This document shows, piece by piece, positions 6,788 to 20,758 of a DNA stretch of 64,000 nucleotides. Below the pieces are notes generated by a model that did no database searches, was not told the DNA's origin, and was given only the letters and a program-made list of their open reading frames with translations. Origin of the DNA: an uncultured Acidobacteriota bacterium (GTDB lineage Bacteria; Acidobacteriota; UBA6911); the NCBI GenBank assembly GCA_963827655.1, contig CAWHCF010000007.1:1-64000 (forward strand). Reading direction: 5' to 3'. Position numbers and translations under genes: made by a program. Each line of letters starts with the position of its first letter. Position 1 is the first letter of the stretch.

Positions 6788-9436
6788 CTAGAGGAAACGT
6801 ACGCTCAGACGCTTGCGCAGCGCCAGGATCGAATCGGTCGCGGTGACCGTCACCGTCCCTGTGAATCCCGCCGGTCGGGTCACGACCGTCAACATCGCGC
6901 CGCCGGGGCCCGCGAGCGCCGGGGCGACCGTTACCCCGCGGGCCGCCGAGGTGGCGTCGACCGACCAGTTCACCTGGCGGTCGGCAGGCGCGCCGGTAAT
7001 CGTCACCGTCGTGATCGGGGCGCCCGCCGGCACCGTTGACGGCGCTGCGACCATGCCGGTCAGCCTCACCGGAGCCACCCGGATCGGCGTGTCGACGCGG
7101 CGGTTGGGGAAGACCGTGTCCTGGGCGCGCACGCGGAAGTTGCCAGCCCGCATGCCGGCGCGCACGGTCGCGGCCGCTGGCAGCACCGCCGGGTTGCCCG
7201 CAGTAATCAAAATGTCGCCGTCGAGCACGGTCCACTGCACGGTGCGTCCCGGGATGGCGACGCCAGCGGGGCTTTGTGCGTTGACAGTGAGGTTCGCGGT
7301 CGACACGCCGTCGGCGGAAAGGGTCGCTGCTCCAGCCGCTGTCGGCGTCGCGGTGACGCCGGCGAGCACGATCAGCGGGGGCCCGACCCCGACATACGGC
7401 TCGTTGCCCACCGGCGTCAGAGTTACGCCTGGAAAGATATGCTCGGTCAAGAATCGGAAGTTGTTCGCGCCTTGTTCGACCAGCGTCTTCTGCTGACGGC
7501 CCGAGGCGAACACATTGCTGAAAACGGCACCACCCCCCTGCCAAGAGAAGTAGATGAATTCCTGCCGCAACACGATGCCACGCGGGAGGTGCGGCACACC
7601 CGGCCCGACGAAGCGGTTGACGTCGATCGAAACCGCCGCCGTTCCGGGAATGGGAGCCATGGCCACTGCGCCGATCTGGTCCACCCAGCCGTTCGCCGGC
7701 ACTGCCAGCGCGAGGTTGGGGACCGGATTGTACGCGCCATTGACCGGTCCCCGACCGAGTTGGTCACTGATCAGGGTGACCTGCTCGCCGACAATGCGGT
7801 CGAGCGCGTTGGCAGTCGTATCGGAGCGCGCGAACGTGATCGTGCTTAGGAACCCATAGGGTGCTCCGAGGGCGCCGGAGTTGACGAGCGCGCTGACCCG
7901 CAAGGGAACCGGGTTGATCGCCAGCTCGGCCATCAGCGCGGCGCCCCCCGCCAGTGACGGCGCCGCTTCGTCGAGACGTGCGCCCGTCGCGGTATCCGTG
8001 ACTCGGAGTTGCATGTTGCCGGTCTGCCTTCCGGGCGTAATGATGTTTCCGGCGACCGCACCACCGAGCGAGCGACGAAAGGCGACATTGATCGGACGCC
8101 CCAAAGGCGCCGTCGTTGCCACGACGGCGACTGTGTTGCCGTTGATGCCGTCGCGGTTGGGCTCTCCCGTGTTGGCCGGCGGCGCACCTGGAACCAGCGA
8201 CGGCACGCCGATGAACGCCGGATTGTTGTTGTAGACGGCATTCACCACTTGTACCAGGTTAATGGCGGCCGAATCGGCTTCGTCCGGGATACCACCGGGC
8301 GGTGTGGTCAGCCCAGCCCGCACCGTGATCGGCGTACCGCCGATTAAGGTGCCAGGCGGCGGCTGGACGGAGCGGACGCTCACGCGCCGACCTGCGCCGA
8401 TGATCGAGACGCCGGCGGGAACGGCGCCGCCGGGGTTGATGGTCCAGGTGAGCGCCGGATTGGCGGGCGCACCGGCCCCGACTGTGGCGGTGGCGGTGAT
8501 GTCACGTCCGCCGACCCCCAATTCCAGGGCCGATGGCGTCACGAGGGTGACGCGTGGAATCGCCTGCACCCCGCTCGCAACGCCCTTGTCCTGCTGGACC
8601 ACGTGCGCCAGCTCGTGCGCGAGCGTGCGCTGGTGTGCCGGAGCCTCCGGGTTCTCGACCTTGCTGCCGAAGACAATGTGGCGGCCGTGCGTGAAGGCGC
8701 GCGCGCCCAGCCCCTCGGCGGCTTCGGCAGCGGTCTGTCCCGAATGCAGGCGTACGCCGCCGAAGCTCCAACCGAATGCTGCCTCGTACCTGTGGCGCAG
8801 ATCCGGCGACATGGGAATGCCCGAACCGAGCCCGGGGACGCCCGAAGTCGGCACCGAGGGTGTCGACGGCCGGGGCGCGGCCGCGCCCCGTGTGCTCCTG
8901 CCTTGCGCTACCTGATCGGCGGCCCGGTCCGCTTCAATCTCGTGCGACTCGCTGCCCCCGGCAACCTCGATCTGCGGCTGCCGAACCGCTTCAAAACTGC
9001 CTTCATGGGCTGATCGCTGCACCACTGCTTCCATTTGCACCGGCTTTTCGTCTTTCTCCTCATCCGGAATCATCTGCCGTTGGACCATGGGCGCAATGGA
9101 AACCGCAAACGGTGTCATCTGCACCGGTTGGTTCTCCTTGTCTTCGTCTTCTTCGGAGAGTGCCTTACGCTGAACTGATGGCTGGATCCTAAGGCCAAGT
9201 GAACGCATGACCTGCTCCGCCCCGCGGTCCCCTTTACGTTCGTAGGGATCGCCCGGATCAATCGCCTCGAGTTTCTTCCGGATCCGGCGTCCCACGGCGC
9301 GATTGCCGATGGTACGTTGCAGCTGGAGGATGCGCTGGACTGAGGTGACGGGTTGGGTCTGCTCCTGACCAGGAACGTCTGCATCATTTTTCCTGCGGGT
9401 CTTTGTGGCCTTTGATTCGAGCAGTTCGTGTTCCAT
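6788..9436 (-). CDS. DUF4157 (eCIS core domain) protein with Ig-like C-terminal region
   Basis: LQLQRTIGNRAV, VQR repeats, FG.SFGGVRLH...ARAFTHGRHIVF...TLAHELAHVVQQ (HExxH) signature; Gly/Ala/Val/Thr/Pro-rich beta C-terminus. Confidence 0.88.
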   Translation of the reverse strand: MEHELLESKATKTRRKNDADVPGQEQTQPVTSVQRILQLQRTIGNRAVGRRIRKKLEAIDPGDPYERKGDRGAEQVMRSLGLRIQPSVQRKALSEEDEDKENQPVQMTPFAVSIAPMVQRQMIPDEEKDEKPVQMEAVVQRSAHEGSFEAVRQPQIEVAGGSESHEIEADRAADQVAQGRSTRGAAAPRPSTPSVPTSGVPGLGSGIPMSPDLRHRYEAAFGWSFGGVRLHSGQTAAEAAEGLGARAFTHGRHIVFGSKVENPEAPAHQRTLAHELAHVVQQDKGVASGVQAIPRVTLVTPSALELGVGGRDITATATVGAGAPANPALTWTINPGGAVPAGVSIIGAGRRVSVRSVQPPPGTLIGGTPITVRAGLTTPPGGIPDEADSAAINLVQVVNAVYNNNPAFIGVPSLVPGAPPANTGEPNRDGINGNTVAVVATTAPLGRPINVAFRRSLGGAVAGNIITPGRQTGNMQLRVTDTATGARLDEAAPSLAGGAALMAELAINPVPLRVSALVNSGALGAPYGFLSTITFARSDTTANALDRIVGEQVTLISDQLGRGPVNGAYNPVPNLALAVPANGWVDQIGAVAMAPIPGTAAVSIDVNRFVGPGVPHLPRGIVLRQEFIYFSWQGGGAVFSNVFASGRQQKTLVEQGANNFRFLTEHIFPGVTLTPVGNEPYVGVGPPLIVLAGVTATPTAAGAATLSADGVSTANLTVNAQSPAGVAIPGRTVQWTVLDGDILITAGNPAVLPAAATVRAGMRAGNFRVRAQDTVFPNRRVDTPIRVAPVRLTGMVAAPSTVPAGAPITTVTITGAPADRQVNWSVDATSAARGVTVAPALAGPGGAMLTVVTRPAGFTGTVTVTATDSILALRKRLSVRFL

Positions 9437-9670
9437 GGCCTGTCTCACGCCTGAGTTCGATTCGAATGAAGATATTGTGAACTTGCCAAGTTGTCAAACT
9501 TGCCAAGATCCGTAAGCACGTGGTTCCGCGGCAACTTTAGAAGCAGGTAAACCTTCCGAGAATCAGCTTGTAGGATGGCGAAACCAATCATTGAAATCCT
9601 ATCATTGTTCGGCCCACCCGAGATACGCAAACGTATAGGCCGGCTCAAAGCAGAACTTCTCGGAGCTTCG

Positions 9671-13899: not shown

Positions 13900-16800
13900 T
13901 TAAGGGCTGACTCCGCTGATTCGCTTCAAGAGCTCGCGGGCGGCGCCTGAATCGGGATGGCTCGAGAGCACCTGTTCGACCAGCGCCTTCGCGGCCGCGC
14001 GATTGCCCTTCTTCAAGAGCATCTCGGCTTCGAGCAACAGGGCCGCTGGATTTCTCGGATCGAGACTCTTGGCTTTGTCGATCGACTTCAGGGCAAGCGC
14101 ATCTTCGCCGGTCTTCAAGTAGAAGAGGGCCAGGTTGACGTGACCGGCGGCATCGGTGGGATCAGCCTCGACCGCCTTCAGGAACTCGGCGCCGGCGCGC
14201 TCGGGCCGGCCGGCCTCCATATGACCGATGCCCAGCTCGGTTCTCGCCGAGGCAAGAGACCGGCGTGAAGCGGCATCATCCGGCGCGACGCTGAGCGCAT
14301 GCTCAAGGTACGGGATAGCCGCTTCAGTTTTTTTCTGTTCGAATAGCAGCATCCCAAGATTGGCATGAGCGTCGACCTGGCTCGGTTTAACCCGAAGAGA
14401 GGCGCGAAGCAACTCTTCGGCCCGGCCCAACTCTCCTTCGGCAATCAGCAAGCCGGCAAAGTTATTGTAAAGCTCAAATCCGCTCTGCCCCCGCTTGATG
14501 GCGGCTTCGAAGAGAATTCGAGCTTCGGCGTTCAGTCCCCGTTCCGCCATGGCGGTCGCCAGCTCCGTGTAGTTGCGCCTTGGCTCCGGCGTATACCGCT
14601 TACCGGGAAATGGCAGCGGGGCCCGGTCTCGCGTTGCGGCGTCGGACAGAAGCGACTCTGCAGCAGTGCGTCCCTGGTAGATTTTGATGATCTCGCCCGA
14701 TTCATCGATCAGAAAGCTGGTGGGAAGCGCAAGATCCCGCCGGCGGTCAAAAAGATTCCGATTCAGAATTGTGTAGGCGGCCACGAGGTGATCGTCTGCG
14801 AGCAAGATGGGAAAAGGGAGCGTAATGGTCTCGAGGCGCTTGCGCTCGGCCGGTTCGTCGACCGACGCCGCAAGCACCTGCACTCCAGCGGCCTCGAGTT
14901 TGCCGGCATTGGCGGCGAAGTCCGCTAGTTCTGTTCGGCACGGAGGGCACCAGGTGGCCCAGAAATTGAGCAGCACCTTCTTCCCGCGATACTGGGCCAG
15001 GGAGTGCGTTTTCCCGTCGGCGGAGGGGAGAGAAAACGTGGGCGCAGGCACCGGCTCGCTCAGCCACGTCCCTGGAGTGCGATTCCCTGTCGGAGCTGAT
15101 TTCTCTGCTACAGGCGCATGCTTGGCGGTAATCCGGAATGTTTCCGAGCTTCCCTCGCGAATCCGAACCAATCCGATCTGCGGCAGCTCGTCGAACTTCT
15201 GCTGGAGACCGCTCGGCCACCGAACCTCGAGGGCGAGAACCCGCTCTCCTTTCCGCACACCGAAATGCAGTCGACGACTGGATTGAGAAAGAAAACCCGA
15301 CCCGCTCTGAACAAACCGCGTGCGCCGCCCGCGATCGGTCACCAGCGTGGCTCGCGCGCCAACGGCGTCACGATTGCTCTTGACGCCGATCAGGTCCACG
15401 ATAACGCCGGAGTTGCCGTTGCTCAATCCGTTACGCATGATCCGGACCTGCGGCTCGGTTCTTGATTTCAGCGCGAGGTCCAAAGCCCCGTCGTCATCCA
15501 GATCCAGCGTGACGAACGAGCGCCCGTCCCCTCGGAAGTCCAGGCCGGTTATGAAGGAAACGTCCTGGAATTTTCCGTCTCCCAGGTTCCTGTAGCAGAC
15601 CTTGCGCTCGCGCCCGCTCCAGGAGCCATCGGATCGGATCAAGAGATTGATCGCACGCCATCCGTCTTCGTATTTCCTTGAGAGGCTCGCGCGCTGCGGC
15701 GTTTGCGACACGACCTGTCGCCAGAAGAAGCTTCAAAGGTCGTGGGTATCGGGACCCGTGATGTAGCCGTTCTGGATAAACAGATCGAGGTTTCCATCAT
15801 TGTCGAAGTCGAGAAAGTCGGAGCCCCATGCAAACCGCCCCATCGCTACGCCGGCTTTCTCGGTATCTTCCGTGAATGTGCCATCGCCACGGTTGCGATA
15901 GAGAGAGTTGCCCTGCGCCTGGCGCTGGAACGAGGCGCGGACCTCGCCTGAAGGTGCGACCTGACGGAACTGGCGGTTGTGGGTAAGCCGCAGCCCCGCC
16001 GAAGACCACATGTTGCCGACGTAAAGATCGAGTTTGCCGTCGTTATCGTAGTCGCCCCATGCGGCAGACATTCCTGCGCCAAGATCCTCAACGCCAGTCC
16101 GCGCGGCGACGTCGGTAAAAGTGCCGTCGCCGTTGTTGTGATAGAGATTCTTGCGCCCGAAATCGTTCGCCACGTAAATATCCGGATGCCCGTCACTGTC
16201 GTAATCTCCCCAGGCCGCGGCGAAGCTGTAGCGGTTGTTATTCTGCATCATGCCGGCGCGCTTTGTGGCGTCCTCAAAGGTGCCGTTGCGGCGGTTGCGA
16301 AACAGGAAATTCGGCGGCCCGTTGGCGGCGTCGTAGTATGGCACCGGCGCGTTGTAGTCCCTGCCCGGCTGCCAGAAATCGTAGGAACAGACGTAGAGGT
16401 CCAGATACCCGTCGTTGTCGTAGTCGGCCAGCGCCGCCGAAGTGAGACTGGCGAGGGCGCTTTCGGGAATCTTCAGGCCGGATTGCGGATCGAATTTGAA
16501 ATGGCCCCGGCCGTCGTTCCGGAACAGCAGCGGCTGAGAAGCGGTGATGGCGATGAGGTCCTGGTCGCCGTCGTTCTCGACATCGGCAAACAGGGCTGTG
16601 CGCGTGTCGTCCAGGATATCGATGCCGGCAGAAACCGTAACGTCCGTGAAAGTCGCATCGCCATTGTTGCGGTAGAGACGGTTGGGCAGGCCGGACGGCT
16701 GGCAGATGTACATGTCCTCGAGACCGTCGCCGTCGTAGTCTCCGACCGCAAGTCCGTTGTGGCCGTAGACGTCGATGCCGGTGGCTTCGTCAAGTATGGT

Positions 16801-17385
16801 TCGCCAATGGTCGGTTCCCAGCGCAAGCTGGGCGCGGAAGGAATGGTTCTGACCGATTGCCTTGAGAGTAACGTCGGTGAACTGAGTCGTGGCGCTGCTG
16901 GTTTCAGCGAGAGGGCCAGGACTAAGCTCGCTGAGCGTCCAGTCGCCGTCTGAGTTCAACCAAACGGAATCCCACCGTCCCAGGAGCGACAGCAGCTTTC
17001 CATCGGTGCTTTTGCCTGCCAACTCAATGCGCAGCCCCACTCTGGCGCGCGTCTCTTCCGGACTAGCGCGCTCGCTGCTAGTAATTTTTAGTTCGACGAC
17101 TGACAGGCTTTCAAATCGACGCGCGATTTCATCGAGCCGAGCAAGAGTTGGCTGGCGTTGGCGCAAATTCTGCGCGATCTGGTCAAGCTTGCGGTGGATC
17201 GCCTCGAAATCGCGCTCGCCGATCCAGGCGTCCTTTTCGGGATCCACTCGAGCAAGCAGTTCCTCTATATCCAGCCGGCGCTCGAACTTTGGAGTAACGC
17301 GGTAGTCGTCGTCCTGAGCAAGGGCCAGCGCTGTCAGGATCAGCCAGACGAGTGGGCGCAACCGTAGGAGCATTCCATTTGTCAT
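13900..17385 (-). CDS. Putative selenoprotein: signal peptide, FG-GAP/CRTAC1-like propeller, Sec551, ASPIC/UnbV, AhpC/TSA redoxin (WCPPC), TPR repeats (1161 aa with UGA read-through)
   Basis: ORFs 15733..17385 and 13900..15711 share one frame; only TGA 15735-15733 interrupts ...GPDTHDL*SFFWRQVVSQTP...; many DxDxDG FG-GAP motifs, NRDAVGA/SGSGFLSQ/VRWPSG UnbV motifs, FWATWCPPC, TPRs; SECIS-like hairpin downstream. Confidence 0.8.
15705..15721 (-). promoter_or_regulatory. Putative bacterial SECIS element
   Basis: Minus strand: TGA + 11 nt (AGCTTCTTCTG) + GCGACA-GGTCG-TGTCGC, a perfect 6-bp stem with a G-initiated loop. Confidence 0.75.
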
Positions 17386-17484: not shown

Positions 17485-20400
17485 TCACCACGCCAGCCGA
17501 AGGCTCAGCTGGATCTCCCTTCCCGTGGAGCCGGGGAGCACACCACCGATCGTTCCAAAGTTGCCGCCTCCGCGGAGCGCGTTCGGCTGATCGAACGCAG
17601 GAACGTTCGGAAAGTTGACGATGTCCGTGCGGAAAGTCATCACTAACGTTTCGGTAAGCTTGAAGTGCTTTTGTACCGAAGCGTCAAGGCCGAAAAAGCC
17701 CGGGCCAAGCCCGTTGGTTCGTCCTGAATTGCCAAGCACGCCATCTCCGGGCGCCTGGAAAGCTGTGGTGTCGAAATACTGCCGGATCGTTTCGGCTCGC
17801 GAGCGGCTCGAGGAAAGATTCGGATTCCGGAGCAGGTTGGGCCGTTGCGCATCAGAAAAGGCATTCAAGCGATTCGTCTGTTCGGTTACGCCGTAAGGAG
17901 CGCCCGAGCGGACCTCGAGAATTCCGCCGATCGTCCATCCTCCGGCGATGGCATTAAGGACGCTGTTTTCGATCGACCAGCGCAGCCCCCGCCCGATCGG
18001 AAGATCGTAGAGGCTGCTCCATGCCAGGCGATGCCTGATGTCGCTGCCCGACAGGCCCTTGTCGCGATGGCGCGCCCCGATGTGCTGGTAGCCGTTCCCC
18101 GAGCTTCCCCCCAGCTCGCTGCCTGACTGTACGTCGTCGATGAACTTGGCCCAGGTGTAGTTTCCGAGCAGGCTGAGCCCCGCCGAATACCGCTTTTCCA
18201 CCTTCACATTCATCGAGTGATAACTCGAGTTCCCCCAATCCGGACTGACGTTGAGCACGTTGCCGAATTGCGGGAAAGGACGCAGGGCCTGCGACTGCAG
18301 CGCCGGCCCGCGTTCATCGACAAGCGGGATCTGATTGATGTTCTCGTTCGGGCCTCCCAGCTTATGTCCGACGTTGGCGATATAGGCAATTTCAATCAGG
18401 GCGTTCGCGCGCAGCTCCTTTTGCACGCCAAGGTTCCATTGCTGCGCGTACCCGGCGACGTGGTCATGCTCAATGTAGTCGGGTGAGGTGCGCACGGGAC
18501 GGCCGAGCGGCACGGCGCCGAAGCCTGGCGTAAGGGGTTCGCGCGTGATCGCCGGCATTCCACTGGCGAACAGAAGCGCAGGCGTGAAGCCGCCATCCGG
18601 AGAATCGAACGAGCCGCTTAACGAGAATCCCTGAGCCCACGCATTGGGAACGGCTCCCTGGTAGGGGCCATTATAGGAGACTCCGTAGCCGCCGCGGACA
18701 ACCGTCCCTTTGGTCACCCGATAGGCAAACCCGAAGCGAGGGCCGAAATTGTTCCGGTCGAAGTCGTGGGCGTACTTGCCCACGCCGTCCTGGCCCGCGA
18801 AAGTGATCACGCCGGGCGTTCCCGAGACGGGATTGATCTGGGTCGCATCGAACCCGCTCTGACGATTGTTTTTCTCCCAGCGTGGCGTATCCAGCTCCCA
18901 TCGGAGTCCAATGTTAATGGTCAGGTTGGGAGTGACCTTCCAGTCGTCCTGGAAATAGGTCCCGTAGTAGTCGGTACGCGTCTCCAGTATGTCGGTCTGG
19001 AGCAGGCTTGCGTTGTTCGTCCAGCCAAGCAGCAGAGACGCCAGACCGCTATTCGTGGCTCGGTCGGTAAAGTTGAACAATCCACCGCTCGTCTGTCTGA
19101 AATCATCTTTATTAGAAGAGTAGCGCCATTCAAAGCCCATCTTGAGCGAATGGTTCCCCTTCATCCAAAGCAGGCCGTTGGTGAACTGGTGCGTGAGAAT
19201 CGGGTCCTGAATCCGTTGGTGGGGCGTCTGGCCCAGAGCACTGTGGCCGGTGACTGTCAGACGCGCCAGGTCGGTTGGCTCCACGCCGTCGAGGTTGATC
19301 TGGCCGTTGAGGCCGGAACCGGTGCCGGCGCCACGATTGATGTGCATGCGGTTGCCGTACATGTACTTGAAATCGTTGATCAGGGTTGTGCGGACGGTCC
19401 GCTGCCAGCTTACCACGAGGTTCGCGTGGCGGTTCTCGCGTGTACCCGCGCGTTCGTCGGCAGCCTGCTCTGGCATCACGGCGGCGACTACTTCCGGCGC
19501 GGTCACGTAGGAGAGCCGGGCGAAAGCTCGGTCGTTCGCGCTCAACTGATGATCGACCCGGGCGGTGTGGAAGTCCTGATTGAGCTGGTCGGATCCGTTG
19601 GCGCGGTAATTGTTCGATGGGCGCCCGAGTGGGATCGTCACCCGGCTGATTCGGCGCCGGGTAGAACCCCGCGAAGGCCCTCCCTATGGGATCGATCCGG
19701 CTCTGCGGAATGATGTTGTTGGCGAATGGCGTCGCCGGCGTATTGCCGACTCGAGTCGTGGGGTCCAGGATTCGGACATCGGTGCGGGCCGAGAAATCGC
19801 CGTTCACTTCGGCCGGACGCGGAACGTTTCGGGTAATGGTCACGCCCGTTCGACGCCGTCCGCCTTCGTAGTTGTAAAAAAAGAACGTCTTGTTCTTTAT
19901 TACGGGCCCACCGATGGAAGCTCCGAAGATGTTGAAGCGCAGCGGCGCCTTCTCCGCGGCAAAAAATGTGCGCGCGTTGAGCACGTCGTTGCGCAGCCAT
20001 TCGTAGGCTGAGCCGTGGAATTCGTTGGTTCCCGAACGAGTGGTCATCAAAATAAGACCGCCGCCGGTCCGCCCGAATTCGGCGGAATAGCTGTTGACGA
20101 TCGCCTTGAACTCCTGCAACGCCTCATTGGGAGGATTGAGCGAGAGTTGAGCGACTCCGAGCGCCATGTTTTGAGTAACCCCGCCGTCGAGGTGCCACAT
20201 CTGGTTGAGGGAACGACCGCCGCCCATGGAAAATCTCGGAATCGCCTCGCCTCCGTCCTCGACGCGAAAAGAAACGTTGCCCATCAAGCGAATCAGAGCG
20301 GCGCTACGCCGGCTCTGGATTGGCATATTGAGGATGGCCTTGTTTTCGATCAGCTGGCCAATGGCTCCGCTTTCGGACTCGATGAGCGGCGCCTCGGCCG

Positions 20401-20758
20401 AAACGCTTACGCTCTCGGTGATTTGCCCCAGGGTCAGCTCGATGTTGACGGTCGTCGTGGTGCCGGTCTCGAGCACGAGTCCGGAGCGAGTGAATCGCTT
20501 GAAGCCCGAGAGCTCGCAGGAGAGTTCGTACTGACCCGGATTAAGGAACGCGATCGAGTAGACGCCGCTCTGGTTGGTCAGGCTCGATGTGGTCTGGCCG
20601 GTGTCGACGTTCTTCGCCTCCACCGTAGCGCCCACCACCACGCCCGCGGTGTTATCGGTCACGGTACCGGTTACCCGCGCCTGTCCGAAACCTGCAGCGG
20701 CCATGCACAATAAGACTACAGCACTACCGATGAGTCTGAGCAGGACTCTCGCGTCCAT
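17485..20758 (-). CDS. TonB-dependent receptor with N-terminal carboxypeptidase regulatory-like domain; one apparent +1 frameshift near 19620
   Basis: GTVTD..G.VVGATV, EFK..NSYSAEFGR, QDDWKV..LT.N.GLRWE, NNFGPRFGFAY, C-terminal REIQLSLRLAW; ORFs 19130..20758 and 17485..19641 join at TRAP/SNNY by removing one C from a C run. Confidence 0.88.

What the first reader, a model, noticed from the sequence alone, without database searches (positions are those of the whole stretch)
13900..17385. Candidate large exported selenoprotein: FG-GAP propeller, Sec, ASPIC/UnbV, CxxC redoxin, TPR
Seen: two annotated ORFs are one reading frame broken by a single TGA (15735-15733) in ...NGYITGPDTHDL*SFFWRQVVSQTP.... 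The break falls inside the FG-GAP/CRTAC1-like region, before the last FG-GAP motif and the ASPIC/UnbV domain that normally belong to the same polypeptide. The downstream ORF has no convincing RBS or signal peptide. Exactly 11 nt after the TGA lies a 17-nt hairpin, GCGACA-GGTCG-TGTCGC. Established: the minimal E. coli fdhF SECIS is a 17-nt stem-loop 11 nt from UGA with a CAGGUC apical sequence, which also occurs here, although this stem lacks the bulged U. Inference: a ~1161-aa periplasmic or surface protein with Sec551 in a propeller loop plus a separate WCPPC thioredoxin-fold domain, possibly forming an intramolecular redox relay. This is not one of the classical bacterial selenoprotein families I know (Fdh, SelD, GrdA/B, Prx, HesB-like); I cannot confirm it is undescribed. 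The other defects in this window are +1 indels, whereas this is a clean in-frame codon.
Basis: partly seen in the sequence, partly recalled or inferred. Interest (0 to 1): 0.92.

Follow-up and report, generated by a model that had tools for sequence, protein, structure and literature searches.

The report
Unrecognised exported propeller selenoprotein family
The apparent stop codon inside this large secreted propeller protein is almost certainly read as selenocysteine, and the same signal recurs in soil and marine bacteria of several phyla, pointing to a widespread selenoprotein family that gene annotation currently cuts in two.

Summary
One minus-strand frame (17385..13900, 1161 aa) is broken only by TGA at 15735-15733, and a 6-bp/5-nt-loop hairpin starts 11 nt later.

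The selenocysteine reading is strongly supported by comparison, not by the single sequence: the hairpin's energy alone is not significant (z -0.11).
- The TGA sits in the same column in 162 distinct homologous sequences from Acidobacteriota, Planctomycetota, Verrucomicrobiota and one Flavobacteriaceae MAG.
- The hairpin has 6/6 pairs in 145/162 TGA forms and in 0/15 sense-codon forms that encode the same SFFWRQVV peptide. It also shows compensatory changes.
- The genome holds selA, selB, selD and tRNA-Sec. Its own fdhA has a hairpin at the same 11-nt spacing with a GUC loop.
- TGA forms occur almost only in selB-positive genomes: 16/16 against a 58/201 background, and 15/16 against 50/121.

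Unusually, sense-codon homologues carry Ser, Ala, Gly, Asn or Glu at this column, and Cys only rarely. Losing Sec goes with decay of the fused ResA/TlpA-like CxxC motif (intact in 58/60 Sec forms, 6/101 others), which fits a Sec-CxxC redox relay.

Public gene calls truncate the protein at the TGA (119/120). A 2026 catalogue of 119 selenoprotein families lists nothing like it. No experiment exists yet.

The parts
13900..17385 (-). One gene for a 1161-aa protein: signal peptide, N-terminal beta domain, FG-GAP propeller, UnbV/ASPIC domain, ResA/TlpA-like redoxin, TPR. It is read through one UGA. The stop codon is at 13902-13900.
   Evidence: AF2 model with pLDDT 87.0 and pTM 0.86
15733..15735 (-). 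In-frame TGA, proposed selenocysteine codon for residue 551, which is the first residue of predicted helix 551-559
   Evidence: same column in 162 distinct homologous sequences; unchanged in bridging contigs of runs X1 and X2
15705..15721 (-). SECIS-like hairpin with a 6-bp stem (GCGACA/TGTCGC) and loop GGUCG, starting 11 nt after the UGA
   Evidence: 6/6 pairs in 145/162 TGA forms and 0/15 non-TGA forms; covariation 0.199 against 0.097 in shuffles, 0/500 reaching it; same spacing and a GUC loop in the genome's own fdhA
17314..17385 (-). N-terminal signal peptide, residues 1-24 (MTNGMLLRLRPLVWLILTALALA | QDD)
   Evidence: Read from the sequence; helix 10-21 with low pLDDT 1-24. Relatives begin with lipobox, TM or signal-like N-termini. 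No signal-peptide predictor was run.
15406..16773 (-). FG-GAP/VCBS beta-propeller, about residues 205-660, with the Sec-bearing helical insert 551-584 between two blades
   Evidence: Pfam FG-GAP_3 168.2 bits in 6 stretches; Foldseek best match murine CRTAC1 9etn_A, E 3.3e-24, TMt 0.74
15595..15597 (-). Cys597, in the first strand of the next blade, a candidate resolving partner of Sec551
   Evidence: Cys at residue 596/597 in 35/46 group-A Sec forms, against 0/16 in the non-Sec clade, 0/1 in the lone non-Sec L057, 0/7 in group B and 0/10 in outgroups. In a larger set the figures are 93/118, 2/34 and 0/18.
15181..15366 (-). UnbV_ASPIC domain, residues 674-735
   Evidence: Pfam 58.8 bits, cut-off 23.4
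14662..15048 (-). ResA/TlpA-like thioredoxin-fold domain, residues 780-908. The active-site WCPPC (C813, C816) lies at 14938-14949.
   Evidence: Pfam AhpC-TSA 97.5 bits and Redoxin 74.4 bits; PDB ResA 1st9 and TlpA 1jfu by sequence and by fold, TMt about 0.8; CxxC intact in 58/60 Sec forms and 6/101 non-Sec forms
13930..14574 (-). C-terminal TPR superhelix, residues 938-1152
   Evidence: Pfam TPR families; helices 939-1156; TPR matches by fold

Best explanation
The two ORFs are one gene for an exported 1161-aa selenoprotein. SelB and tRNA-Sec decode UGA-551 as selenocysteine, directed by a small hairpin that starts 11 nt downstream and is built from the codons of the conserved peptide W-R-Q-V-V-S. 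The protein has a signal peptide, a CRTAC1-like FG-GAP propeller with an UnbV/ASPIC domain, a ResA/TlpA-like CxxC domain and a TPR tail. Sec551 is predicted to sit at the N-terminal end of a short helix inserted between two propeller blades. My inferred mechanism is that Sec is the redox-active residue of an extracytoplasmic oxidoreductase. After it reacts with its unknown substrate, Sec would be regenerated through a selenenylsulfide, with Cys597 in most lineages, and finally by the fused CxxC domain, which would draw electrons from a membrane thiol reductant. The gene belongs to an old family that appears to have begun as a selenoprotein and is found in Acidobacteriota, Planctomycetota and Verrucomicrobiota. 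One acidobacterial clade lost Sec to Ser, Ala, Gly, Asn or Glu, and its CxxC motif decayed as well. Shown by computation: the conserved recoding signal, the sel machinery and the co-occurrence with selB. Inferred: actual Sec insertion, the redox role and the relay. My confidence that this is Sec recoding is about 0.85; for the relay mechanism it is about 0.5.
For: (1) Conservation. TGA is in the same column in 12 of 19 nearest homologues. In the window's class, 52 of 61 matches carry it, out of 137 genomes searched. At least 120 GenBank contigs across phyla hold the motif, with frames open for hundreds of codons on both sides. In all there are 162 distinct TGA sequences.
(2) With the codon left free, all 31 motif matches in 201 Verrucomicrobiales-type genomes and all 32 in 121 Pirellulales-type genomes are TGA.
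(3) Hairpin. 145/162 TGA forms have 6/6 pairs, against 0/15 sense forms that encode the same peptide. The loop is GGUCG in 124/162. Pair 4 occurs as G.U 71, A-U 45, G-C 22, C-G 16 and U-A 1, and 0 of 10000 shuffles reach the observed pairing. By the tool's own count, 97.9% of cells are paired and covariation is 0.199 against 0.097 (0/500 shuffles), while slid partners reach at most 67%.
(4) Machinery in this genome: selA 372.8 bits, selB 380.1 bits, selD 384.3 bits and tRNA-SeC(tca). The genome's fdhA (1381 bits) has UGA followed after 11 nt by a hairpin with a GUC loop.
(5) selB co-occurrence: 16/16 motif genomes against 42/185 others (p 4.4e-10), and 15/16 against 35/105 (p 4.6e-6). selB is over its cut-off in 43/48 further carrier genomes.
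(6) Redox coupling. CxxC is intact in 58/60 Sec forms and 6/101 non-Sec forms. Cys596/597 is present in 35/46 group-A Sec forms and 0/16 of the non-Sec clade. The one Cys-for-Sec form that keeps CxxC also keeps that Cys.
(7) AF2 places residue 551 as the first residue of helix 551-559.
(8) Outgroup-rooted tree: Sec forms lie on both sides of the deepest split and the non-Sec clade is nested among them.
Against: There is no experimental evidence of selenium in the protein. The hairpin's folding energy in this one sequence is not better than shuffles (z -0.11). Rfam finds no SECIS family here. Sense-codon homologues rarely carry Cys: 1 of 116, 2 of 30 and 0 of 12. Instead they carry Ser, Ala, Gly, Asn or Glu, so the usual Sec/Cys criterion is barely met and the column tolerates non-redox residues. 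Group B Sec forms lack Cys597 (0/7, 0/18). Some sense forms also fold a weaker hairpin, because the peptide's codons are nearly palindromic. The association between CxxC and Sec rests mainly on one large non-Sec clade, so it amounts to few independent events. Seven TGA carriers have no selB match over the cut-off: G082 and G117 and five small MAGs or SAGs. An eighth, G828, has no selB match at E <= 1e-62.
Confidence: 0.85

Rival explanations
1. UGA/SECIS acts mainly as a selenium-dependent translational gate. Sec is inserted, but its chemistry is incidental. The codon sets how much full-length protein is made relative to the 550-aa N-terminal product according to selenium supply, and residue 551 is not catalytic.
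For: The column tolerates Ser, Ala, Gly, Asn, Glu, Met and Asp in sense-codon homologues. The peptide's own codons nearly form the hairpin, so a recoding signal could arise easily. Group B lacks the Cys597 partner.
Against: CxxC is intact in 58/60 Sec forms and only 6/101 non-Sec forms. The Cys596/597 partner is specific to Sec forms. Residue 551 is placed at a helix N-terminus. The TGA has been kept across phyla, with up to 5 copies per genome.
Confidence: 0.07
2. The UGA is a true stop and the locus encodes two polypeptides, a 550-aa propeller fragment and a separately initiated C-terminal protein. The hairpin would then serve coupling, re-initiation or mRNA stability. A variant of this idea is read-through by a near-cognate tRNA rather than tRNA-Sec.
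For: Gene callers annotate it this way: 119 of the 120 best database proteins end exactly at ...DL. An in-frame GTG lies 8 codons downstream.
Against: The two halves stay in one frame in every copy examined (81 instances), which separate genes would not need. The break cuts through a single propeller that folds as one domain, and sense-codon homologues are continuous. The downstream GTG sits inside the hairpin. TGA forms are confined to selB-positive genomes.
Confidence: 0.05
3. The locus is a pseudogene, a nonsense mutation or a sequencing error in this assembly.
For: The window has other broken genes; the upstream TonB-dependent-receptor-like gene is split into two overlapping ORFs. A paralogue elsewhere in the genome has an in-frame TGA with no hairpin.
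Against: The same codon is in the same column in 162 distinct sequences from several phyla. Contigs of independent metagenome runs confirm it. Both halves are conserved at the protein level.
Confidence: 0.01

Closest known systems
Bacterial selenoprotein genes decoded by SelB at a hairpin just 3' of UGA, for example formate dehydrogenase alpha subunit (FdhA, TIGR01553)
   Same: An in-frame UGA is followed after 11 nt by a short G+C-rich hairpin whose small apical loop holds G-U. The genome's own fdhA has the same spacing and a GUC loop. selA, selB, selD and tRNA-Sec are present. [quoted passage not shown]
   Different: The protein family is unrelated to FdhA. Sec is not a metal ligand in a molybdopterin enzyme. 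Homologues rarely carry Cys at the Sec column, whereas published screens require Sec/Cys pairs (PMC1088965 and PMC12013277, passages seen). No Rfam SECIS model matches.
CRTAC1 / ASPIC-UnbV family of FG-GAP (VCBS) propeller proteins (murine CRTAC1, PDB 9etn)
   Same: FG-GAP_3 repeats plus the UnbV_ASPIC domain are over the Pfam cut-offs. 9etn_A is the best match by fold (E 3.3e-24, TMt 0.74) and also matches by sequence (E 8.3e-16). The genome has many paralogues of this kind (98 matches).
   Different: The ordinary paralogues are 550-720 aa, lack the SFFWRQVV helix motif, and serve as the outgroup in the tree. This subfamily adds the Sec codon, a fused CxxC redoxin and usually TPRs. The biochemical function of bacterial CRTAC1-like proteins is unknown to me (recalled).
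ResA / TlpA / DsbE-type extracytoplasmic thiol-disulfide oxidoreductases
   Same: Residues 777-915 match ResA (1st9) and TlpA (1jfu) by sequence and by fold (TMt about 0.8). The WCPPC motif is at the expected place.
   Different: NCBIfam ResA and TlpA equivalog scores are far below their cut-offs (77.4 against 170; 66.5 against 230). Here the domain is fused to a propeller instead of standing alone behind a membrane anchor.
[quoted passage not shown]
   Same: They are extracytoplasmic-type redoxin domains in Sec-using bacteria, and NCBIfam NF041054 (WAxxUGC_long) gives a weak hit on the redoxin domain (54.5 bits against a cut-off of 300).
   Different: In those families Sec replaces a Cys of the redoxin motif itself (UxxC, UGC). 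Here the redoxin keeps CxxC and Sec lies about 260 residues upstream in the propeller. None of the 119 listed families carries an FG-GAP, VCBS or UnbV domain.

Membership tests
Bacterial selenoprotein gene (SelB/SECIS-dependent UGA recoding) | In-frame UGA conserved at the same column among homologues, with coding sequence continuing in frame | tested here: met
   162 distinct TGA sequences. 52 of 61 class-level matches carry it. In 81 instances the frame is open on both sides. The free-codon pattern gives TGA in 31/31 and 32/32 matches.
Bacterial selenoprotein gene (SelB/SECIS-dependent UGA recoding) | Stem-loop immediately downstream of UGA with a small apical loop containing G, maintained by selection | tested here: met
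   The hairpin starts 11 nt after the UGA with loop GGUCG. 6/6 pairs occur in 145/162 TGA forms and 0/15 sense forms. Covariation exceeds all 500 shuffles. The single-sequence energy is not significant, and no Rfam model matches.
Bacterial selenoprotein gene (SelB/SECIS-dependent UGA recoding) | The genome encodes selA, selB, selC (tRNA-Sec) and selD | tested here: met
   Carriers are selB-positive in 16/16, 15/16 and 43/48 genomes, against backgrounds of 58/201 and 50/121.
Bacterial selenoprotein gene (SelB/SECIS-dependent UGA recoding) | Homologues with Cys aligned to Sec (the criterion used by published screens) | tested here: inconclusive
   Cys is found in 1 of 116, 2 of 30 and 0 of 12 sense forms, while Ser, Ala, Gly, Asn or Glu dominate. 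One Cys form, P0386, keeps both the CxxC and the Cys597-equivalent.
Bacterial selenoprotein gene (SelB/SECIS-dependent UGA recoding) | Selenium demonstrably incorporated at the UGA position | not testable with these tools
   This needs 75Se labelling or mass spectrometry.
CRTAC1 / ASPIC-UnbV FG-GAP propeller family | FG-GAP/VCBS repeats forming a propeller, followed by the UnbV_ASPIC domain | tested here: met
   Pfam FG-GAP_3 168.2 bits and UnbV_ASPIC 58.8 bits. The fold matches CRTAC1 9etn_A at TMt 0.74.
ResA/TlpA-type thiol-disulfide oxidoreductase | Thioredoxin fold with a CxxC active site | tested here: met
   AhpC-TSA 97.5 bits and Redoxin 74.4 bits. WCPPC lies at residues 812-816. The fold matches ResA at TMt about 0.8.
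ResA/TlpA-type thiol-disulfide oxidoreductase | Scores as a ResA or TlpA equivalog (NCBIfam cut-offs) | tested here: not met
   NF002854 scores 77.4 against 170 and NF047696 scores 66.5 against 230. It is a related domain, not an orthologue.
Peroxiredoxin (AhpC/TSA) | Peroxidatic Cys in a PxxxTxxC motif (motif as given in PMC13188914 section 7, there written with U) | tested here: not met
   The site reads F-W-A-T-W-C-P-P-C, a thioredoxin-type CxxC, and NCBIfam peroxiredoxin models score far below their cut-offs.

The most novel reading that the evidence does not exclude
This is an ancient, Sec-founded family of extracytoplasmic oxidoreductases spanning several phyla, in which cysteine is almost never an acceptable substitute for selenocysteine. 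Lineages that give up Sec replace it with inert residues and let the dedicated CxxC recycling domain decay instead of switching to Cys. If so, it would be a natural case of near-obligate selenium chemistry. It could also be one of the commonest selenoproteins of soil Acidobacteria and of marine and soil Planctomycetes and Verrucomicrobia, and invisible to all Sec/Cys-pair-based screens.
Probability: 0.35. Interest if true: 0.85.

Novelty: new member of a known kind. Interest (0 to 1): 0.76.

Why it matters
If confirmed, this adds a large, exported, multi-domain family to the prokaryotic selenoproteome. It would be, as far as the literature I checked shows, the first with Sec in a beta-propeller. 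It lives in phyla that dominate soils and are common in the sea. Some genomes carry 4-5 copies, so it may make up a sizeable share of their selenium demand.

It also exposes a blind spot. Current screens accept a UGA only if Cys homologues exist, and gene callers cut these genes in two; the halves are named 'VCBS repeat-containing protein' or 'hypothetical protein'. The joint decay of Sec and the fused CxxC domain offers a natural experiment on why selenium is used rather than sulphur. It is also the first functional lead, a redox role, for bacterial CRTAC1-like proteins.

Tried and rejected
- **Rfam** scan of 15500-15900 at E <= 10 gave only a chance snoRNA hit and no SECIS family.
- **Single-sequence folding** as evidence for the hairpin was rejected: z -0.11.
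- **Operon partners.** The upstream TonB-dependent-receptor-like gene is shared only with L160, L125 and L131, plus weak hits in L193 and L207. All-against-all clustering of ORFs in 107 8-kb loci gave no broadly shared neighbour beyond the gene itself and what look like antisense shadow frames. I did not annotate the smaller clusters of 7-24 loci.
- **NCBIfam** has no model for the propeller part.
- **Within-class selB test** was uninformative, because selB is present in 127/137 genomes. I used other orders instead.
- **Other TGAs in own-genome paralogues** flagged: three are ordinary stop codons and one (C20) lacks a hairpin.
- **Model coordinates** were not placed in the script box, so no Sec-Cys distances could be measured.
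- **RNA run X15.** One contig covers 15564-15757 but reaches only 22 nt beyond the TGA, too few to count as bridging. I draw no conclusion on expression from it.
- **Complex prediction, the protein-atlas search and the metagenome-contig scan** were not used.
- **Literature.** Four full-text searches found no paper linking selenoproteins with FG-GAP, ASPIC, UnbV, CRTAC1 or VCBS. Term look-ups in the main texts of PMC13188914, PMC12013277, PMC13326102, PMC2398784, PMC9312934, PMC1088965 and bioRxiv 10.64898/2026.09.15.751765 found none of these words. Table 1 of PMC13188914 was read in full. Supplementary tables were closed, among them the BSepDB family list (Table S2), so a listing there cannot be excluded.
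- **Correction.** My note after said 13 non-TGA matches; the output has 12 non-TGA and 34 TGA of 46.


Full report
**The observation**

On the minus strand, the ORF listing gives two ORFs, 15733..17385 (550 aa, ATG) and 13900..15711 (603 aa, GTG). They share one frame. Translating 17385..13900 with TGA read through gives 1161 residues with a single recoded position, U551, in ...YITGPDTHDL-U-SFFWRQVVSQTPQ.... Directly from the sequence, TGA (15735-15733) is followed by 11 nt (AGCTTCTTCTG) and then GCGACA-GGTCG-TGTCGC (15721-15705). RNA folding of the 40 nt gives exactly this hairpin as the minimum-energy structure, at -10.5 kcal/mol. That energy is no better than dinucleotide shuffles (z -0.11; 81 of 200 fold as well), so the hairpin in this one sequence proves nothing.

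Pfam finds the following:
- FG-GAP_3, 168.2 bits, in six stretches on both sides of the break
- UnbV_ASPIC at 674-735
- AhpC-TSA and Redoxin at 780-908
- TPR families at about 938-1152

The thioredoxin motif WCPPC has its cysteines at 813 and 816. The N-terminus (MTNGMLLRLRPLVWLILTALALA/QDD) reads as a signal peptide. That is my reading of the sequence; no predictor was run.

**Not an error**

Twenty public runs from 18 studies of soil and rhizosphere metagenomes hold part of window 15300-16200. I laid contigs of four runs. X1 (15300-15957) and X2 (15665-15903) bridge the codon, and no run shows another letter at 15733-15735. The nearest variant, 15730 G>A on the plus strand, is the synonymous AGC->AGT in the next codon. 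X1 may be the sample the window came from, so X2 is the independent confirmation.

**The machinery**

The genome (8.18 Mb, 53 contigs, 90% complete) has:
- selA, 372.8 bits
- selB, 380.1 bits against a cut-off of 242
- selD, 384.3 bits
- one tRNA-SeC(tca) among 47 tRNAs found by ARAGORN

Its formate dehydrogenase alpha subunit is a classical selenoprotein (TIGR01553, 1381 bits). It carries one in-frame TGA (..ARL-U-HGPTV..) followed after 11 nt by the hairpin GGTGGCCA-GTC-TGGCCGCC. The spacing and the G-U-C loop content match the candidate. This serves as a positive control within the same genome.

**Comparative evidence for recoding**

- *Nearest relatives.* In 61 related genomes, 19 strong matches were found. 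12 of them have exactly one TGA, and alignment puts all 12 in the window's column.
- *Two groups.* Group A reads ..D-L-U-S-F-[FL]-W-R-Q-V-V (45-67% identity to the window in the class-level search). Group B reads ..K-D-T-U-S-F-F-W-R-H-V-V-A (38-42%).
- *Whole class.* Across the 137 genomes of the class, 52 of 61 matches carry the TGA.
They come from Verrucomicrobiota (Roseibacillus, Akkermansiaceae), Planctomycetota (Pirellulaceae, Planctomycetaceae, Phycisphaerae), Acidobacteriota (Bryobacterales, Holophagales, Thermoanaerobaculia, Terriglobia) and one Flavobacteriaceae MAG.
- *Frames.* In the 81 instances of the 80 loci shown, the frame is typically open for 550-700 codons upstream and 400-800 downstream where the locus allows.
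- *Architecture.* FG-GAP plus UnbV was found in 7 of 7 representatives scanned. A redoxin was found at E <= 1e-6 in 4 of 7, and all 10 printed translations show a CxxC. Most also have TPRs.
- *Free codon.* With the codon at the column left free, all 31 matches in 16 of 201 Verrucomicrobiales-type genomes are TGA, as are all 32 matches in 16 of 121 Pirellulales-type genomes. In 401 genomes of the window's phylum, 34 of 46 matches are TGA and 12 are sense codons: GCC x2, GCA, AGC, GGC x3, AAC x2, AAT x2 and TAC.

**The hairpin is selected only where the TGA is**

I collected 177 distinct 90-nt windows from the held loci: 162 with TGA and 15 with a sense codon that encode the same peptide motif. 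Results:

| Measure | TGA forms (162) | Sense forms (15) |
|---|---|---|
| All six core pairs standard | 145 | 0 (at most 5 of 6) |
| Mean local folding energy (kcal/mol) | -10.2 | -5.8 |
| Loop GGUCG | 124 | 2 |

- *Val codon.* None of the 12 sense forms uses GTC for the first Val codon.
- *Pair 4.* This pair joins the third base of the Arg codon to the first base of the Ser/Pro/Ala/Thr codon. It occurs as G.U 71, A-U 45, G-C 22, C-G 16 and U-A 1, with 7 mismatches. None of 10000 shuffles reaches the observed 155 paired (mean 119.7).
- *Other changes.* Two sequences change pair 2 on both sides (AGG...CCU). Three sequences, L139 and L252 (GGCGACA-GGU-UGUCGCC) and L192 (GGCGGCA-GGU-UGUCGCU), keep a 7-bp stem in a register shifted by one base.
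- *Tool count.* On 129 distinct rows, 97.9% of cells are paired (shuffles 93.6%, 0/500). The covariation score is 0.199 against 0.097 (0/500). Sixteen cells change on both sides against 1.8 expected (0/500). Partners slid by 1-3 columns pair in at most 67.3% of cells.

Three caveats apply. My pattern fixed part of the 5' arm and loop. The rows are related to one another. Some sense forms fold a weaker hairpin, because W-R-Q-V-V-[SA] codons are nearly palindromic. That last point suggests how the signal could have arisen.

**Sec rather than another kind of read-through**

- In the Verrucomicrobiales-type sample, selB is over its cut-off in 58 of 201 genomes, and all 16 motif-bearing genomes are among them. 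One-sided Fisher p is 4.4e-10.
- In the Pirellulales-type sample, selB is found in 50 of 121 genomes and in 15 of the 16 carriers, p 4.6e-6. The exception, G828, is a 2.9-Mb genome.
- Among 48 further carrier genomes, 43 have selB over the cut-off, and the five without are 1.6-3.2 Mb MAGs or SAGs.
- In the window's own class, selB is nearly universal (127/137), so that test has no power. Two genomes with sense-codon forms (G047, G051) lack selB, and two TGA carriers (G082, 72% complete, and G117) show no selB.

Related genomes are not independent, so the p-values overstate the evidence.

**What is unusual: Sec is not paired with Cys**

- Of the 120 best full-length database homologues (all at most 57% identical, about 1270 aa, same architecture, mostly Terriglobia metagenomes), 116 carry the motif. 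Their residue at the column is S 51, A 48, G 12, N 3, C 1 and E 1.
- A filter-free search of 1.84 billion cluster representatives gave 30 motif-bearing proteins among the best 150: N 8, S 8, E 3, M 3, A 2, C 2, D 2, G 1 and Q 1.
- So Cys occurs, but rarely. One Cys form (P0386, 1184 aa) keeps both the CxxC and the downstream Cys.

Trees:
- On a FastTree of 180 rows, the state 'TGA or not' needs only two changes.
- In an IQ-TREE quick tree of 80 rows rooted with ten CRTAC1-like paralogues that lack the motif, the motif family is one clade (SH-aLRT 86). Group B, all Sec, is sister to the rest (99). The non-Sec clade (16 rows) is nested as sister to four Bryobacterales Sec forms (99). L057 (Glu) is a separate single loss.
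- Parsimony therefore favours a family that began with Sec and lost it twice. The rooting and the sampling are limited: I subsampled 70 of the 180 ingroup rows.

**Evidence for a redox role and a relay**

- *CxxC motif.* The redoxin active site is CxxC in 58 of 60 Sec forms (1 CxxS, 1 SxxN) but in only 6 of 101 non-Sec proteins. The others read SxxC 27, AxxC 25, SxxS 18, AxxS 7 and so on. A separate regex look-up showed that a few non-Sec forms still have CxxC: P0009, P0042, P0048, P0078 and P0089, plus loci L055 and L057. This is as expected if the motif decays after Sec is lost.
- *Partner Cys.* A Cys at window residue 596 or 597 lies in the first strand of the next blade. It is present in 35 of 46 group-A Sec forms, in 0 of 16 of the non-Sec clade, in 0 of 1 for the lone non-Sec L057, in 0 of 7 of group B and in 0 of 10 outgroups. 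In a larger set the figures are 93 of 118, 2 of 34 and 0 of 18.
- *New Cys in the non-Sec clade.* That clade has instead gained Cys at residues 263 (14/16), 281 (8/16), 390 (14/16) and 442 (10/16).
- *Model.* AlphaFold2 on the full protein, with 60 non-Sec homologues as the alignment, gives pLDDT 87.0 and pTM 0.86. Residue 551 is the first residue of helix 551-559, which with helix 570-584 forms an insert between blades, and Cys597 lies in strand 596-600.

A nucleophile at a helix N-terminus is the usual setting for redox-active Cys or Sec in thioredoxin-fold enzymes. That is established knowledge recalled from memory, not tested here. The association rests largely on one big non-Sec clade, so it reflects few independent events.

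**Closest known**

- By fold, the propeller plus UnbV part is nearest murine CRTAC1 (9etn_A, E 3.3e-24, TMt 0.74). The redoxin is nearest ResA (TMt about 0.8), and the tail is nearest TPR proteins. Sequence searches agree.
- NCBIfam has no model for the propeller part. ResA and TlpA models score far below their cut-offs.

**Prior knowledge**

- Public gene calls cut the protein. Of the 120 best database proteins matching the N-terminal half (64-99% identity), 119 end in ...DL, that is at the TGA. They are named 'VCBS repeat-containing protein', 'FG-GAP-like repeat' or 'hypothetical protein'. No full-length relative above 57% identity is on record.
- Four full-text searches and term look-ups in seven papers found no link between selenoproteins and FG-GAP, ASPIC, UnbV, CRTAC1, VCBS or propellers.
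- The May 2026 review PMC13188914 lists 119 prokaryotic selenoprotein families in Table 1, which I read in full. None has such a domain.
- Published screens keep a UGA only if Cys homologues exist. PMC1088965 requires at least two Cys homologues and more than 50% TGA/Cys pairs, and PMC12013277 requires its top hits to be Cys homologues (passages seen). That would explain the omission.

**Verdict**

The best explanation is a genuine selenocysteine codon, not previously recognised, in an exported CRTAC1-like propeller-redoxin-TPR protein that belongs to a family spread across several phyla. My confidence is about 0.85. The Sec-Cys597-CxxC relay is a reasoned inference at about 0.5. The substrate and the physiological role are unknown.

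The upstream TonB-dependent-receptor-like gene is shared only with the closest relatives, and I found no broadly conserved neighbour. One row among the comparative sets (L051) comes from the unpublished genome G046, and no claim depends on it.

Noticed in passing
window 17485-20758 (-): The gene just upstream on the same strand is a TonB-dependent-receptor-like outer-membrane protein (CarboxypepD_reg plus OMP_b-brl_4). It is split into two overlapping ORFs (20758..19130 and 19641..17485), so it has a frameshift or an assembly indel. The neighbour is shared only with the closest relatives (L160, L125, L131).
   Followed up: partly
G000:C20:323001-323222 (-), outside the window: A CRTAC1-like paralogue has an in-frame TGA inside a calcium-loop motif (DYNNDG-TGA-VDLYV). 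No SECIS-like hairpin follows it. It is probably a nonsense mutation or pseudogene, not a second Sec site.
   Followed up: partly
Homologues P0002-P0121; window residues 263, 281, 390, 442: The non-Sec (mostly Terriglobia) clade has gained four Cys that Sec forms lack (14/16, 8/16, 14/16 and 10/16). Three of them (263, 390, 442) lie a few residues before a DxDxDG loop in a blade. They might be a replacement thiol or metal site, or structural disulfides.
   Followed up: no
window 15703-15733: In soil metagenome run X3 the summed contig depth jumps to 188 in this 31-nt bin, against about 9 in the flanks. Contigs break here, presumably because many organisms in one sample share the UGA-hairpin motif.
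   Followed up: no
L250-L252 (G451, G424): A variant of the motif has Thr after the TGA (D-[FY]-TGA-T-F-F-W-R-Q-V-V-A). Its hairpin is in a shifted register (GGCGACA-GGT-TGTCGCC). G451 has two identical copies.
   Followed up: partly
window 6788-9448 (-): An 886-aa ORF carries an eCIS core domain (PF13699, 90.3 bits). It is unrelated to the finding.
   Followed up: no
G000, whole genome: The genome holds a large family of CRTAC1-like FG-GAP/UnbV paralogues: 98 matched stretches in roughly 25 genes. Only the window's copy has the SFFWRQVV motif and the Sec codon.
   Followed up: partly
window residues 25-200 (about 16786-17313, -): The N-terminal region folds confidently into helices plus a beta-sheet of 5-6 strands (strands 91-171, pLDDT about 90). 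No Pfam family matches it. It is conserved in relatives, which share a D-x-x-x-D-x-W-x-T-E motif near the start.
   Followed up: no
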